From: Callorhinchus milii
Lineage: Eukaryota
NCBI RefSeq assembly: GCF_018977255.1
Contig: NW_024704742.1
Span: forward strand, 70,558,001-70,622,000
Direction of reading: 5' to 3'
DNA: 64,000 nucleotides
The translations under genes were made by a program, and so were the position numbers. The notes beneath the pieces are model-generated. The model searched no databases. It saw nothing but the letters and a program-made list of their open reading frames with translations, and was not told where the DNA came from. Below, one piece after another: positions 12,122-27,442 of the stretch. Within the stretch, counting starts at the first letter, position 1. Each line of letters starts with the position of its first letter.

Positions 12122-14548
12122 GGGTTCAGTTAGCAGCACTCTCGCCTCTGTCAGAAGGTTGTGCGTTCAAGCCTCATACCTGGACTTTGAGCTCACAGTC
12201 CAGGCTGACTCTCTTGTGCAGTACTGGGTGTGCGTGTGTAGGGTGGGGGGGGGGGAGTTGTTGGCGGTGCCGTCGTTTTGATGAGATCTTAAACTGAGAT
12301 CCCGTCTGTTCCTGTTCGGGCTCACATTAAAGATCCCACGGTGCTATTAGAAGAGGGAAGGGAGTTTCCCTCTCCCAGTGCCCTGCCCAACAATCTCTCC
12401 CCACAGATAAAAAAAATGATCACTCACTTCACGGCTGTTCATGGGTTGTTGCTGTGCGTAAGTTGGCTGACATATTTGGAGTACTTATGGAAAGTTTAGA
12501 GTACTTATGGAACGGGACAAGGAGCAATCAAAGGTGAAGATACTCAACTGGAACAGGACAAATTTCAGTGAGTTAAAAAGGGACCGAGCCCTTAAGCGAT
12601 GGGAAGCCTTCAAGAAGAAAATAGTTCGGGGACAGAACAAATACATTCCCATAAAGGGGAAAAGTAGGGCATCCAAACCTCCCTGGATGAAAAAGGAAAT
12701 TGGGATTAAAATAAAACAGAATAAGAAGGCTTATGATAAATTACAGGTTCAAAATACAGAAGATAATCAAATAGAATATAGAAAGTTCAGAGGAGATTGA
12801 AAAAGGAAAAAAGAAGAACAAAGAGATTGTATGAGAAAAGATTAGTGGGTAACATAAAAGGGAGCCTTAAGGTATTTTATAAGCATATAAAGAATAAAAG
12901 GTTAGTCAAAGGTAGGGTGGAGCCAATTAGGGACCAAAGAGGAAATCTTTTTATGGAGAACAGATGCAAAGTACTCAAGGGGAAAAGTAGGGTATCTGTC
13001 TTCACAAAAGAAGAGGATGCAGCCAATGCCACAGTATCGGAGGAGAGGGTGAAGAAATTAGATAAGATAAGAATAAACAGAGAGGAGTTACTGAAAAAGT
13101 TGTCGGTGCTCAAGGCAGATAAGTCACCCAGTCCGGACGGGATGCATCCTAGGTTACTGAGGGAAGTAAGGGTGGAAATAATGGAGGCTCCGGCCACAAT
13201 CTTTTAATGCTCCTTGGACACTGGGATGGTGCCAGAGGACTGGAGGGTTGCAAATGTTACTCCCCTGTACAAAAAGGGGCAGAAGGATAAACCCGGAAAC
13301 TACAGGCCAGTCAGCCTAACATCAGTAGGGGGGAAACTTCTAGAAACTATAATGCGGGATAAAATAAATTTTCACTTAGAAAAATATAAGTTAATAAAGG
13401 ACAGACAACATGGATTTATTGAAGGCAAATCATGTCTAACAAACCTGATGGGTCATTTTGATGAAGTAATGGAGAGCTGGATGAAGGTAGCGCAGTTGAT
13501 GTATACGGATTTTTAAAAGGCGTTTGATAAAGTGCCACATAAGAGACTTGTAAGCAAAATAGAAGCCCAAGCTAAGAAAAGTAGTAAACAGTGAGGAGGA
13601 TAGTAGCAGACTGCAAATGGACAGAGACAGACTGGTAAAATGGGCAGAGACGTGGCAGACAATGTTTAATGTGGAGAAATGCGAAGTAATGCATTTTGGG
13701 AGGAAGAATAAGGAGAGGCAATATAAGCTAATGGTAGAATCGTAAAGGGGGTGAAGGAACAGAGAGACCTGGGGGTTTATATCAGTAAATCTTTTGAAGG
13801 TGGCAGGACAGGTAGATAAAGCTGTTAAAAAAGCATATGGGACACTAGGCTTTATAAATAGGGGCAGAGAATACAAAAGTCAGGAAGTTATTATGAACCT
13901 TTATAAAACACTGGTTAGGCCTCAGCGAGAGTAAGTGTTCAGTTCTGGGCACCACACTTTAGGAAGGATGTCAGGGCATTGGAGAGGGTGCAAAGATTTA
14001 CCAGGATGCTACCAGGAATTGGGGGCTTCAGTTATCAGGAGAGGCGAGAGAAGCTGGGATTATTCTCCTTGGAGCAGAGAAGATTAAGAGGAGACTGAAT
14101 AAAAGTTTTCAAAATTATGAGGAGATTCAACAGGGAGAACAAGGAGAAACTATTTCCACTGGCAGTTGGATCAGTAAACCGAGGGCACCGATTTAAAATA
14201 GTTGTTATAAAAAAACAGAGGGGAGGTGAGGAGAAATCGTTTCACACAGCAAGTTGTTCAGATCTGGAATGCATTGCCTGAAAAGGTGGTGGAAGCCGAT
14301 TCAGTAACACATTTTAAGAGAGAAGTAGATAATTATTTAGGGATAACAAGTTTTGCAGGCTATGAAGTGAGAGCGGGGGAGTGGGATTGAATTGGATAGC
14401 TCTTTTCAAAGAGCCGGCACAGACAAGATGGGCCGAATGACCTCCTTCTGTGCTGTATAATTCTATGATTCTATGTTCACCTACAAATTACACAGTCACT
14501 ACTCTTTATAGTGAAATCCCGTGAAGAGCTTTGAGACATCCTCCTGAC
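12122..14548 (+). mobile_element. SINE family B split by the CR1 insertion (halves 12122-12477 and 14477-14548)
   Basis: Deu body stops at ..AAGTTGGCTGACATATTT and resumes after the CR1 tail with TTCACCTACAAATTACACAGTCACTAC. Confidence 0.82.
12478..14476 (+). mobile_element. CR1 LINE, 5'-truncated 2 kb pseudo-ORF2 with deletion of the RT core
   Basis: KSPSPDGMHPRLLRE, VPEDWRVANVTPLYKKG..NYRPVSLTS, QHGFIEGKSCLTNL, YTDF*KAFDKVPH; jumps near 13570 to KVVNSEED, so PQGS and FADD are missing; ends ATTCTATGATTCTATG. Confidence 0.95.
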
Positions 14549-18000: not shown

Positions 18001-18281
18001 TAATAATAATAATAATCCTTACATTTGATATAGCGCCTTATCACATTATTGAGACGCGTTTCACAGAATATACTGTAAAGTGAATTGACATGGCAGACAA
18101 TTGCCCATAAACAGTCATTGATTGAGTGACCAAATTATTATTATTATTTTTTTGTACGGAATACTACGCGCCAAGACTGTGGATTAAGAAAACTTGCCTA
18201 AGTTTTCTCCCCGCCCGGGAATTGAACCCGGATCCTCTCACTTGTGAGGCGAACGGGCTAAGCACCTCACTACGGGACTAC
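18001..18281 (-). mobile_element. SINE family A (internal deletions)
   Basis: Tail and head both recognisable. Confidence 0.85.
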
Positions 18282-18714
18282 AATCTCAGTTCAATATCTC
18301 ATTTGAAGGACGACACCTCCGACAGTACTGCGCTCCCCACCCCCCTCAGCACTACAGTGGAGGGTCAGCCTAGACTGTTTGAGCTCAAAGTCCCCCCAAT
18401 GTGTGTGAGATAAAGAACAAAGGAGAGAATTACACGGATAAGAGAAACTAATTTCAAAGTTGCAATAAAAAAAGGGAAATTGAAAAGGACATTTAGAATT
18501 AGATGTTTTATAATTGAAAGGATTAAATCAATTTGCGGTGTCTCATCCAGTTATGACTGTCACTGTGGCTAAACCTAGGGGGTAGTTTCTAGTCTATTTC
18601 CCCTCCTTCCCCCCTTCTCCCTCAGTGCTATCACATCTCAAACCCCTTCTCCTTCACAACGGCCAGAGCTTTTTGAGACCCAAAGCTTGTTGTCTTAAAA
18701 TAATAACATCATGT

Positions 18715-20310
18715 CCGAACGGTTGGTCCAGGTGAGGCCTCCAGCAGCACAATATCATCTGCAAACAGAAGCTCCACAATCCTATCAGAGAACAACAGAT
18801 ACACCAAACTCTTCCCCCTCGATGCCGTCCAACATGTCATTGACGAACAAATCAAACAGGGTGGGTGACAATGGACAGTCTTGCCTTACCCGCCATTCCA
18901 GAGGGATGGGCTCAGTAAGTCCACTGTCGACTCTTACACGGATCTTGGAGTGGGAGTACACATTCCGGATAAAATCCAGGATTCGGTCATGTACTCTCAG
19001 GTCTTCCAGTTTCATCATGAGGGCCTCATGAGGCAATGGGTCAAAGGCCTTGTGAAAGCTGATGAACACAATATAAATGGGTTTGCCTGATGACATTCTG
19101 ACCCACAACCTGTCCCACACATTCCTCATGAGAATGGAAAGGGAGCCCACCCTGTTCCTTCCTGATCAAACCGCGAGCCTCCAATGCGTGTGATACATGT
19201 ACAGTGACTACCCAAAGCACCACTTTAGCGGCCACTGAAATCAGCGAGCTCCCTCTGTAGTTCTCAGTCTCAATGGGGTCACCTTCTTGTGGATAGCCAC
19301 CACAATTGCACTCTGGAAGACTGACTCAGAGAGAATCCTGTTGACCAGTTCTAGGGAGCGCAGCTCCAAGGTGAGTTAGAGGTTCCTGTCTTGGACCTGT
19401 AAGATCCTCATCATTCTCTATCTCCTTCCTTACAGCAACTTTTTGGAACTCAGTATTAATGCTGTTCAACCAGCTGCCTTGCCATTGGCGCCAGAGTGTG
19501 GAGTCCACCTCCTTCTAGCAGATTGGGTCATTACAGGCCTTCAATGTCTCCCGTCAGCTCCTCCAGCCTCCATGCAGATGGATCTCTACTGTGGCCTGTT
19601 GGGTCAGACGCCAACTCCACCTAATGCTCCCTCCAAACCCCAAGGTTATCCTCATGGGTCTGTTGTAGACACCGGACTTGTCCAACACTGATACAGGCCC
19701 ATAGGGGCCCCTCCGGCCATGGCCGACAACAGACTTCAGCCAGCGGAAGGAAAGATTTGAGATCATTCTTGTATAGTTGCTCCCCCTTTTGGAGTGACGT
19801 CATCCATTGACCCTGCTTCATTTCCCTCATAACCATCCCTGGTTTGTGCCCTGCCTGCTATACGTTGCCTTTGCTGTAGTTCTAGCTTGCTCCAAGGAAG
19901 CTTCCAAAACTGCTTTAAATGACCTCTGCTTTCTCCTAATCGCTTTTCTTCCCTTGGCTACCAGGGATCAGTGCCTTGCAGGCTGTAGCTTCAGTTTCCT
20001 TATGACCTCAGCTGCAGAAGCAAGAAAGTCCTTGGCTACATTGTTGGTCATCGAGTCCGCGCTGTCACAACCTCACACAGAGTCCGGTGACATGTAAGCA
20101 GAGATCATTGCTATTGAAGGGTTTTGCTCCACCTTTGAAGAGCTGTTTTTAACATGATCCAATCTCCCATAAGGAGCAACTGACAGTCAGAGAACCATTA
20201 TGCGAGGCTATCCAGCAAAGTGCCTATAGCCTTAAGGATCCCCAAGCACTCGTCACAGTGCAGCTTCTGAGGAATGTACATTGATCCCACAAACCAGGGC
20301 GTAGATCTAC
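18715..20310 (-). mobile_element. Decayed APE-RT non-LTR retrotransposon, not CR1 or L2
   Basis: Minus strand: WFVGSMYIPQ..LLLMGDWI (APE motifs, about 20295-20155); WREH*VELASDPTGHSRDPSAW; KK-GDPIETENYRGSSLISVAAKV; KEQGG..EECVGQV; FISFHKAFDPLPHEAL; VRQDCPLSPTLFDLFVND; LLFADDIVLL (FADD at 18754-18765). Stops, frameshifts and deletions. Confidence 0.9.
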
Positions 20311-20529
20311 TAAATAATAATAATAATAATAATCTTGTATTTGATGTAGCACCTTATCACATCATTGAGAAGTCTCAAAGCTCTTCACAGGATATACTGT
20401 AAAGTGGAGTGACTGTGTGTTTTGTGGGTGAAATACCGCATCCATTTATGTACAGCAGTATCCCACAAAGTCTTGGATTGAGTGACCAATTTTATTTGGG
20501 GGATGGGGGGGTGGGAGGGGGAGAGAATG

Positions 20530-21000
20530 CTGTTTCGTGGGAGGTGTCATCCGCCTGATGAGACAAATAAGTTGAGACGAGGAATAAATCAGGGCACGTG
20601 ATATTATTCCATCCCGCATTTTAACCCACCCTGCTCGCTCCAGCCTGCTTTATTTTTATTAAAACAAAAACCTCTGACCATGATTCCCGCTGACAGGCCC
20701 CGCTAATTGGTGTAAATTAATTTACCTCTGGCAAACACTGGTACAAAGTGCCGGCTCCCTTAAATAAGTGATGATGGAAGTACCTGCATTAAGTCTGACT
20801 TTTTAAATCATTTAGCAGCACAATCTGTTAATTAGCTGGAGCAAGTCTGTGAGCTTTCACCAACAATTAAAAGCTGGGCCCTTTCAGCTGAGAGAAGTCT
20901 CTGTGACAAGCTGTCATTTATTCATTCCTTCAGTTTGCAGCCGAGGGAACAAGCAAGCAAGCGATGTGTGTCTGCGTTATGTTTGTATATTTTCTAACCG
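20530..21000. promoter_or_regulatory. Candidate conserved non-coding element (enhancer-like)
   Basis: Unique sequence with CTGACAG, CTAATTGG, TAAATTAAT, TTAATTAG, CACGTG and CTGTCA motifs; conservation is inferred, not tested. Confidence 0.55.
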
Positions 21001-21074
21001 CTGGGACCCCTCTTTCCCACCATCTCGCTTTCCACCCCCTCCCTCTTTCATTGTTTTTCTTGCACTCTCTCTTA

Positions 21075-21390
21075 TGGAGTCCTGTAGTGCTGTGGTTAGT
21101 GAATTTGCCTCGCAAGCGAAAAGACCTGGGTTCGATTCCCAGGCGGGTCGAAACCTTAGGCAACTTTCCTTACTCAACTTGCCTCAGTTTACCTAGCAGG
21201 AGGTAGGAATCCAGTTGTTAGTGGATTGTTGGATCGCTTCCCAGGGGTAATAATTGCTTCAAAAGAATAATAATTTTGTCACTCAATCCACAACTGTTTG
21301 TGGAACACTGCTGTGCAATTGGCTGCCATGTTTCACCCACTATACTGTGCATTTTGTGAAGCGCTTTAAGATATCTCAATGACTTATAAT
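21075..21390 (+). mobile_element. SINE family A
   Basis: Head TGGAGTCCTGTAGTGCTGTGGTTAG..CTCGCAAGCG..GGTTCGATTCCC; abuts a minus-strand SINE B piece (about 21390-21660). Confidence 0.88.
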
Positions 21391-26087: not shown

Positions 26088-27442
26088 CAAACTATGCGGT
26101 TTTAGCTGGTTAGACTCCAGCAGTTACACTCAACTCACACTATGGGGTTCCCAAGCCTTGGCTTTTGCCAACCTGCACCTAATGCCATCTCCACTTTGTT
26201 GCCTCTAATGGTTTCTCCTCCAGCCCCCGCACTGTTACATCTGGCATCCCCCAGGACTCTGTCCTTGGCCCTCTCCTCTTTAATATCTACATACTCCCCC
26301 TTCGTGACATCATCCGCAGACATGGGGTCAACTTCCATATGTATGTGGATGACACCCAACTCTATCTTTCCGCCTCCACTCTCAACTCCAGGCCCATTGC
26401 TGTCCTGACAGAATGTCTGTCAGACATCAAGTCCTGGATGAGGACAAATTTCCTACAGTTGAATGTGAACAAGACTGAGGCCCTCCTGATTGGCTCACGC
26501 CAACACCTCAGCACCTCAGGTTCTGGCAGCATCAATCTTCATGGTTGCACACTTCAATTCACCAAATCAGTCAGGAACCTCGGTGTCTTGTTCAATCCTC
26601 AACTGTCTTTTCTTCCCCACGTCCAAGCCATGACCCGCTCTGCCTTCCCTCACCACCGTAACATCGCCTGACTCCGCCACTACCTCACCCCTCAGGCCGC
26701 TGAAACTCTTGTTCATGCCTTCATCACATCTAGGCTCGACTATGCAAATGCCCTGCGTGTTGGGCTTCCCAACTCCTCCCTCCACAGGCTGCAGATAATC
26801 CAGAACTCTGCAGCCCATGTTCTCTCCTGCACCAAACTCCGTGACCCCATCTCACCTATTCTCGCCCAACTCCATTGGCCCCCGATCCTTCAGAGGATCG
26901 ATTTCAAGATCCTAGTACTCACCTACAAGCCTCTCCATTGCCTCGCCCCACCCAACCTTTGCAACCTCCTAACCCCCTACCAACCCGCCGTTCCCTCCAC
27001 TCAGCCGGCTATGGCCTGCTCCATGTCCCCCGACCCATCTGCCTCACCATTGGCGGGGGAGCCTTCAGCCACTCTGCCCCCAATCTCTGGAATTCCATCC
27101 TCCAATCACTCCGTCTCGCCCCCTCCTTAGCCTCCTTCAGGTCCCGCCTCAAGACCCCCCTCTTCGACTATACGATCAGCCACCCCCCTTTCCCCTCCCC
27201 TCCCTTCTCTCCTCCTGATCGCTGCTCAGGTCTGAAATGCTGTACACTGTCCAGCGCCTTGGGACATCCTCCTGATGTGAAAGGCGCTATACAAATGTAA
27301 TCTTGTTGTTGATGTTATTGTAAGGTATTAGGTAAACAGGCTGTGTCCCTCCAGGGAGAGAGCGCACATTCCATTCCAACAATCTATCTCTGGGATTTCC
27401 ATGTGTAGGTGGGATACATGGAATCCTCAGCTTGGTTTGGAG
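26088..27442 (+). mobile_element. Retroposon family C split by L2 (halves 26088-26182 and 27326-27442)
   Basis: ..CCAACCTGCACCTAAT | L2 | ATTAGGTAAACAGGCTGTGTCCCTCCAGGG. Confidence 0.82.
26185..27322 (+). mobile_element. L2 LINE 3' 1.1 kb including RT motifs
   Basis: GIPQDSVLGPLLFNIY, HMYVDDTQLYL, FLQLNVNKTEALLIG, VRNLGVLF; (TTG)n tail. Confidence 0.95.

What the first reader, a model, noticed from the sequence alone, without database searches (positions are those of the whole stretch)
18715..20310. Out-of-place APE-RT LINE resembling fungal/microsporidian elements: candidate horizontal transfer
Seen: one decayed minus-strand element with APE motifs (GSMYIP, LMGDW) and RT motifs (NYRGSSLIS, KAFD, RQDCPLSP, FADD). 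Its RT is of the RQGCPLSP type, whereas the CR1 and L2 elements here are PQGS-type. It also carries WREH*VELASDPTGHSRDPSAW and KEQGG..EECVGQV. From memory these match W..HF..LA.D.TG.SR...W and EQAGFR..EEC..Q motifs of LINE RTs in gut fungi (Harpellales) and microsporidia rather than typical vertebrate LINEs. Inference: a rare lineage, possibly acquired from a parasite. It sits among host SINEs and is mutationally decayed, which argues against simple contamination.
Basis: partly seen in the sequence, partly recalled or inferred. Interest (0 to 1): 0.72.

Follow-up and report, generated by a model that had tools for sequence, protein, structure and literature searches.

The report
Non-animal-type LINE fossil in vertebrate
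This is a broken piece of an old, multi-copy jumping gene in a vertebrate genome whose named relatives come from fungi, algae, ferns and gymnosperms, not animals; it likely entered by an ancient transfer between kingdoms, but nothing points to a fungal or microsporidian parasite as the donor.

Summary
All quoted motifs lie on the minus strand at 20311-18742, in an internal fragment of an endonuclease-reverse transcriptase LINE (profile score 268 bits, shuffles 16-22; 8 frameshifts, 2 stops).

It is not contamination: contigs of four samples bridge its 3' junction, and 786-845 contigs per run, about 15% diverged, show a family of roughly tens of copies.

It falls in a mostly single-ORF lineage marked by W..H...LA.D.TGHSR...W and EQAGFR..EEC..Q (branch support 95-99). 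Grouping it with unnamed RTE-X-like proxies is rejected (AU p=0.0006).

Of 240 listed relatives, 84 carry an organism or gene-set name and none is an animal. They are chytrids, Harpellales, one metchnikovellid microsporidian, brown and red algae, a fern and gymnosperms. Most of the closest hits are unnamed environmental contigs.

The parasite-donor idea is not supported. The element has no sister in the tree, identities are flat (40-50%), and gut-fungal and microsporidian members rank low. Annotators appear to file this lineage loosely under RTE-X; Repbase and other vertebrate genomes could not be searched. Verdict: a dead copy of an unusual LINE lineage; horizontal origin is plausible but unproven.

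The parts
20129..20311 (-). Remnant of the apurinic-type endonuclease (GSMYIP...LMGDW), profile positions 175-234 of 1227, with one in-frame stop. The first ~175 residues of the ORF are absent.
   Evidence: 38.9 bits vs shuffle max 15.4; hmmsearch iE 4.4e-8
19966..20128 (-). Poorly matching stretch. About 150 profile positions, including the DH and SDH catalytic motifs, must fit in about 160 nt, so an internal deletion of roughly 290 nt is inferred.
   Evidence: depth dip at 20068-20130
19567..19965 (-). Linker before the RT, ending in the lineage motif WREH*VELASDPTGHSRDPSAW (19635-19570)
18742..19566 (-). Reverse transcriptase from the pre-RT region to FADD, including NYRG, KEQGG..EECVGQV, KAFD and RQDCPLSP; broken by frameshifts and a stop
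18728..18741 (-). 3' break of this copy, just after FADD. 27-35 contigs per run continue past 18728 into family sequence that this copy lacks. Thumb, CCHC finger and 3' UTR were not found anywhere in the window.
   Evidence: table 7
20313..20502 (-). Host SINE/L2-like 3' tail ending in (ATT)n, directly abutting the 5' edge of the fragment; up to about 40 matching stretches elsewhere in the window
18400..18727 (.). Single-copy host flank, joined to the element on contigs of four samples
18001..18390 (-). Host SINE-like repeat downstream of the element

Best explanation
This is a dead internal fragment of a multi-copy endonuclease-reverse transcriptase LINE family that belongs to a lineage whose named members are non-animal eukaryotes, and it likely entered the host lineage by an ancient horizontal transfer from an unidentified, probably aquatic, microbial eukaryote or alga. 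Shown: domain order, decay, integration in host DNA, multi-copy state and lineage membership. Inferred from how APE-RT LINEs are known to work: the active ancestor made one protein of about 1250-1450 residues (endonuclease, RT, CCHC finger), nicked host DNA and copied its own RNA in by target-primed reverse transcription. It amplified to tens of copies, then died. Inferred for this copy: it lost its 3' third and part of the endonuclease after insertion, and decayed by methylation-driven C-to-T change like its host. Inferred and weakest: the horizontal origin. The host is taken to be a cartilaginous fish from its CR1/L2/tRNA-SINE landscape, which is recalled, not tested.
For: Lineage: 112 of the 150 best phmmer hits carry Q.GF..E[EC]. 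The element lies in a 49-row branch (SH-aLRT 95, stem 0.64) and a 22-row branch (99). Grouping with five RTE-X-like RTs is rejected (p-AU 0.0006) and with two fish RTs weakly (0.04). RT identity is 40-50% to lineage members and 29-34% to the four outgroup RTs compared. Range: 84 of 240 listed relatives are named, none an animal (12 of 120, 72 of 120), although fish and arachnid proteins are in the same collection. Residence: the junction is bridged in 4 of 4 runs laid. 786-845 contigs lie on the element in 3 informative runs, mostly under 95% alike; 11 long ones differ by 11-18%. CpG observed/expected is 0.34 against 0.39 for the window, while five intact relatives have 0.63-0.89. 57 of 130 listed differences in X3 are of the kind C-to-T or G-to-A in this copy.
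Against: No donor is identified: there is no sister group and the best identity is about 50%. A position as sister to the whole lineage is not rejected (p-AU 0.52). Identities are flat across kingdoms (42-57%), and brown algae, land plants and Harpellales each form their own clade; both fit a very old lineage inherited with many losses. Only 240 of 1110 hits were listed. Decayed animal copies would not be annotated as proteins. An earlier unchecked note (e1-9361380) mentions a relative in a nematode assembly. The host sequence used in trees was read through with the lineage's own profile, which favours membership; unrepaired pieces give the same ranking, clearly for the upstream piece and less so for the downstream one.
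Confidence: 0.52

Rival explanations
1. Vertical relic: the lineage is very old, was present in early animals, was lost or died in most of them, and stayed active late in this slow-evolving fish lineage. Its absence from animals would be a sampling effect.
For: Star-like tree with host-congruent subclades. Sister-to-lineage placement not rejected. Flat identities. Frith 2022 (PMC9004415, passages) shows that several patchy LINE clades, RTE-X among them, were present in early vertebrates.
Against: No animal among 84 named rows of 240, although annotated animal proteomes are well represented in such collections. Copies only about 15% apart show activity long after animals arose, which would need an unbroken active line with no visible animal relatives.
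Confidence: 0.3
2. One reading: the element was acquired from a fungal or microsporidian parasite or gut symbiont.
For: The lineage includes Batrachochytrium salamandrivorans, Synchytrium, Smittium, Zancudomyces and Amphiamblys. Pairing with Amphiamblys (p-AU 0.65) or B. salamandrivorans (0.53) is not rejected. Microsporidia-metazoan exchange of DNA transposons is reported (PMC4202319, abstract and passages).
Against: By blastp of the unrepaired RT piece against 489 sequences, Amphiamblys ranks 279, Smittium 310 and Zancudomyces 374, against Taxus 12 and Ascophyllum 25. RT identity is 40-43% to fungal and microsporidian members and 48% to Taxus and Ascophyllum. Pairing with Harpellales is close to rejection (p-AU 0.064). 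Fungal and microsporidian members need 3 label changes on the tree.
Confidence: 0.13
3. An ordinary animal RTE, RTE-X or Tx1 element whose odd motifs come from decay.
For: Curators appear to label such elements RTE-X by best hit (PMC12477816 supplement; PMC9926174). RTE-X fossils exist in vertebrates. My RTE-X proxies were unnamed.
Against: The motifs are shared letter for letter with intact non-animal members. AU tests reject grouping with the RTE-X-like proxies and, weakly, with the fish RTs.
Confidence: 0.04
4. Assembly contamination from a fungus or protist.
For: Named relatives are non-animal.
Against: The junction is bridged in four samples from two studies. There are many diverged copies, host-like CpG loss, frameshifts and adjacent host SINEs.
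Confidence: 0.01

Closest known systems
Ectocarpus RTEX-1_Ec32 / RTEX-2_Ec32 (curated LINE/RTE-X; PMC12477816, passages and supplementary table rows seen, FASTA libraries not readable)
   Same: Single endonuclease-RT ORF and 5.5-5.9 kb length, like intact members of this lineage. Ectocarpus, Pylaiella, Laminaria and Ascophyllum proteins fall in the lineage.
   Different: I could not confirm that the curated families are these proteins. They are complete with C-rich ends; the window copy is dead and 42-48% identical in RT to the brown algal proteins. Their RTE-X label rests on a best blastp hit.
[quoted passage not shown]
   Same: Many B. salamandrivorans RT proteins carry the EEC motif and lie in the lineage.
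   Different: 41% RT identity and no special closeness in the tree. Which named family they match was not checked.
Unnamed LINE proteins of Smittium culicis, Zancudomyces culisetae, Synchytrium endobioticum, Amphiamblys sp., Galdieria yellowstonensis, Taxus chinensis and Adiantum nelumboides
   Same: Same lineage motifs and the same supported branch.
   Different: 40-48% RT identity; none is sister to the window element.
Canonical RTE-X (RTEX) clade, including vertebrate L4/L5 fossils (PMC5753468, passages seen)
   Same: Endonuclease plus RT, C-terminal CCHC finger in intact relatives, GxRQG-type motif. The mechanism is expected to be the same.
   Different: RTE-X-like proxies have Q.GF...ST.DH instead of EQAGF..EEC..Q and lack TGHSR..W. 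Identity is 29-30% and grouping is rejected. No Repbase reference was available.

Membership tests
APE-RT non-LTR retrotransposon (LINE) | Apurinic-type endonuclease upstream of an RT in one ORF | tested here: met
APE-RT non-LTR retrotransposon (LINE) | Dispersed copies, more of them at the 3' end | tested here: met
   Summed contig depth rises from about 60 at the 5' edge to 800-1400 over most of the RT in X3, against 12.5 on the flank. Depth is only a rough guide to copy number.
APE-RT non-LTR retrotransposon (LINE) | 3' tail and target-site duplication | tested here: inconclusive
   This copy lacks its 3' end.
Unnamed TGHSR/EEC lineage (fungi, algae, ferns, gymnosperms) | W..H...LA.D.TG[HN]SR...W before the RT | tested here: met
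   19635-19570
Unnamed TGHSR/EEC lineage (fungi, algae, ferns, gymnosperms) | EQAGFR..EEC..Q in the RT | tested here: met
   KEQGG..EECVGQV at 19160-19107
Unnamed TGHSR/EEC lineage (fungi, algae, ferns, gymnosperms) | RT falls on the lineage's branch | tested here: met
   SH-aLRT 95 and 99; the bootstrap run did not finish
Unnamed TGHSR/EEC lineage (fungi, algae, ferns, gymnosperms) | Single long ORF with CCHC finger, and a conserved 3' UTR hairpin motif | tested here: inconclusive
   Single ORF in 5 of 6 full-length loci, tail motif in 4 of 80 loci; both regions are missing from this copy
Canonical RTE-X (RTEX) | RT groups with RTE-X-type sequences | tested here: not met
   p-AU 0.0006; the proxies were chosen by motif and are unnamed apart from one Chlorella protein
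Canonical RTE-X (RTEX) | Placement among Repbase RTEX references (RTclass1) | not testable with these tools
   No Repbase or Dfam access
CR1 / L2 | PQGS-type RT motif and tree position | tested here: not met
   RQGCPLSP type; PQGS-type RTs lie far outside
Horizontally transferred element | Patchy distribution, absent from related hosts | tested here: inconclusive
   0 animals among 84 named of 240 rows; only one organism holds near-identical DNA; other vertebrate genomes could not be searched
Horizontally transferred element | Supported nesting in a donor group, or similarity too high for the hosts' divergence | tested here: not met
   No sister group; best identity about 50%, flat across kingdoms

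The most novel reading that the evidence does not exclude
An unnamed, pan-eukaryotic LINE clade, distinct from RTE-X and spread across chytrids, gut fungi, microsporidia, red and brown algae, ferns, gymnosperms and many uncultured eukaryotes, crossed kingdoms into the germ line of a cartilaginous fish and amplified there. It would be a rare case of a LINE moving from a non-animal eukaryote into a vertebrate.
Probability: 0.45. Interest if true: 0.68.

Novelty: new member of a known kind. Interest (0 to 1): 0.42.

Why it matters
The vertebrate transposon transfers in the passages I read are between animals. A LINE from an algal or fungal type of lineage that colonised a vertebrate germ line would extend that route across kingdoms. 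The family also shows that the working label RTE-X probably hides a separate, widespread, motif-defined clade that needs a name. If the family turns out to be vertical, it adds one more LINE lineage to the ancestral vertebrate set. The copy itself is dead and shows no sign of a host function.

Tried and rejected
No whole genome was held, so copies could not be counted directly. A word-indexed protein search with the decayed RT piece found nothing among 480 candidates. No relative was found in viral contigs in 2 scans, so there is no evidence for a viral vector. ESM Atlas gave only generic RT clusters; their Mollusca and Chordata labels are not evidence of kinship. PDB gave only L1, R2 and AP endonucleases. 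Rfam found nothing in 15 related loci and only six tRNA-like SINE heads in the window, none at the element. The unique stretch 20500-21075 upstream of the SINE is not part of the element (12.2 bits vs shuffle mean 13.0; single-copy depth). No second copy, no C-terminal remainder and no 3' tail motif was found in the window. Run X7 was uninformative (6 contigs laid). The bootstrap tree did not finish in two runs, so only SH-aLRT and AU values are given. I considered that the many 4-5 kb contigs might be extrachromosomal elements and set that aside: close cluster members sit on contigs of up to 1.2 Mb and on a 680-Mb Taxus record. Nine literature searches showed no paper describing this lineage in a vertebrate; the library lacks Repbase Reports and most subscription journals.

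Full report
OBSERVATION. Every motif quoted is present on the minus strand, in order, over three frames. The stop-free piece 18785-19162 matches Pfam RVT_1 (E 2.2e-9). Aligned with frameshifts to a profile of 24 intact relatives (alignment A1), the stretch 19965-18742 scores 268 bits against 16-22 for three shuffles, with 8 frameshifts and 2 stops. The endonuclease remnant 20311-20129 scores 38.9 bits against a shuffle maximum of 15.4. The copy covers profile positions 175-801 of 1227. It lacks the N-terminus, probably about 290 nt inside the endonuclease (inferred from lengths), and everything after FADD. No remainder lies elsewhere in the window. A host SINE tail abuts its 5' edge.

RESIDENT AND MULTI-COPY. 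Six of 13 listed runs, from two studies of one organism, hold words of the stretch. Contigs of all 4 runs laid cross the 3' junction into single-copy flank (X3 18223-18925, X4 18223-18798, X5 18406-18770, X1 18532-18863). In the three informative runs, 786 and 805 contigs lie on 18430-20300 at 80% likeness or more, mostly under 95%. Up to 53 contigs share one variant site, and summed depth over the RT is 20-110 times that of the flank; the tool warns that depth is no copy number, so I read this as tens of copies. Eleven longer contigs from other copies differ by 11-18% (mean 15%, censored at 20%). SINE copies in the window are about 70-86% alike, so the family is of similar age or somewhat younger. 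27-35 contigs per run continue past 18728, so the 3' truncation belongs to this copy. CpG observed/expected is 0.34 against 0.39 for the window. Contamination is excluded. That the host is a cartilaginous fish is my inference from its repeat landscape (recalled); earlier AI notes say the same but are not evidence.

WHAT IT BELONGS TO. phmmer with the unrepaired RT piece against 1.84 billion proteins returned 150 best hits, of which 112 carry Q.GF..E[EC] and 54 carry [TS]G[HN]S. Intact relatives are endonuclease-RT proteins of about 1200-1500 residues with a C-terminal CCHC finger; 5 of 6 full-length metagenome loci have a single long ORF. Two searches with intact relatives listed 120 of 571 and 120 of 539 hits. 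84 of these 240 rows carry a name: B. salamandrivorans 56, Smittium 12, Adiantum 4, Taxus 2, Ectocarpus 2, and one each of Pylaiella, Laminaria, Galdieria, Synchytrium, Zancudomyces, Amphiamblys, a gene id Gb_02072 (read as Ginkgo from memory) and a bacterial MAG (taken as contamination). Ascophyllum was added. None is an animal. The other 156 rows are unnamed, mostly 4-5 kb contigs. Ten more distant hits were looked up: they include two fish, an arachnid and Chlorella; those named four lie outside the lineage.

TREES. FastTree on 266 sequences and IQ-TREE on 64 and 31 selected rows put the element on the lineage's branch (SH-aLRT 95 with stem 0.64, and 99). The bootstrap run did not finish. 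AU tests on the 31-row set: grouping with five RTE-X-like RTs is rejected (p 0.0006), with two fish RTs weakly (0.04), with Harpellales not quite (0.064). Not rejected: sister to the whole lineage (0.52), with Amphiamblys (0.65), with B. salamandrivorans (0.53). In those three tests the constrained tree scored slightly higher than the free one, so the inner placement is unresolved. RT identity is 40-50% to lineage members and 29-34% to four outgroups, and 42-57% between members from different kingdoms. The read-through used the lineage's own profile, which favours membership. As a control, two unrepaired pieces were ranked by blastp against 489 sequences. The upstream piece puts every outgroup that it hit below the named lineage members. 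The downstream piece is less sharp: three RTE-X-like proxies outrank Amphiamblys, Galdieria and the Harpellales. The best named hits for that piece are Taxus (rank 12) and Ascophyllum (25); Amphiamblys is 279, Smittium 310, Zancudomyces 374.

HOW IT WORKED. By established knowledge of APE-RT LINEs, the ancestor copied itself by target-primed reverse transcription; the rise in depth toward the 3' end fits the usual 5' truncation. It then went extinct and decayed. The origin is the open step. For transfer: activity recent enough that copies differ by about 15%, and no named animal relative. For vertical descent: a star-like tree with host-congruent subclades (brown algae 95-98, land plants 96, Harpellales 96), flat identities, and poor sampling of decayed animal copies. 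I put transfer from an unidentified non-animal donor at 0.52, a fungal or microsporidian donor at 0.13 and vertical descent at 0.30.

COMPARISON WITH PRINT. Ectocarpus RTEX-1 and RTEX-2 are curated as single-ORF, 5.5-5.9 kb RTE-X by best blastp (PMC12477816: passages and rows of one supplementary table; its FASTA files could not be read, so identity with my proteins is unconfirmed). B. salamandrivorans LINEs are labelled LINE or LINE/RTE-X (PMC9926174, passages), and Saccharina has an RTEX-1 (PMC4421812, passages). RTE-X fossils exist in vertebrates (PMC9004415 and PMC5753468, passages). Passages of PMC4202319, PMC4350176, PMC7070016 and bioRxiv 10.1101/2025.06.16.659975 did not mention such a family. 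Nine searches listed no description of it in a vertebrate, but Repbase, Dfam and most subscription papers are outside reach, so it may already be catalogued under an RTEX name. It works like RTE-X; membership of canonical RTE-X was not met against proxies and could not be tested against references.

EARLIER NOTES. Four AI notes from this genome describe what seem to be other copies of the family with the same verdict. They fit the multi-copy result but are not independent support. A sequence look-up found no look-alikes.

VERDICT. A real, dead copy of an unusual LINE lineage otherwise seen outside animals. Cross-kingdom transfer is plausible and testable with whole genomes, but unproven, and the parasite donor is unsupported. 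Interest 0.42.

Noticed in passing
L001:5378, L003:4469, L005:5338, L012:1613: Four of 80 loci, all lineage members, share a 3' UTR motif of about 25 nt after a T-run that folds as a 5-bp stem with a 7-nt loop in two of three folded. It may be the RNA handle that the RT recognises. It is absent from the window.
   Followed up: partly
L002:4701-4812, L003:4624-4695, L005:5778-5931: Three full-length contigs end, after an A-run, in a 72-154 nt repeat of sequence from their own 5' region. This could reflect tandem or nested copies, circular forms or assembly joins.
   Followed up: no
L017:1638-2688, L013, L015: Divergent members with related motifs occur on gut-metagenome contigs; L017 sits beside a 1706-aa Ig-like repeat protein. 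A gut protist host is a guess.
   Followed up: partly
L008:104-2044: One lineage member has a 647-aa upstream ORF with no Pfam match, overlapping the start of the RT ORF, unlike the single-ORF majority.
   Followed up: no
window 12471-13720 (+): Decayed CR1-like element with an RT remnant.
   Followed up: no
window 26183-27130 (+) and many other places: L2-like RT and 3' fragments, plus dozens of tRNA-headed SINE copies with (ATT)n tails; six heads pass the Rfam tRNA threshold.
   Followed up: no
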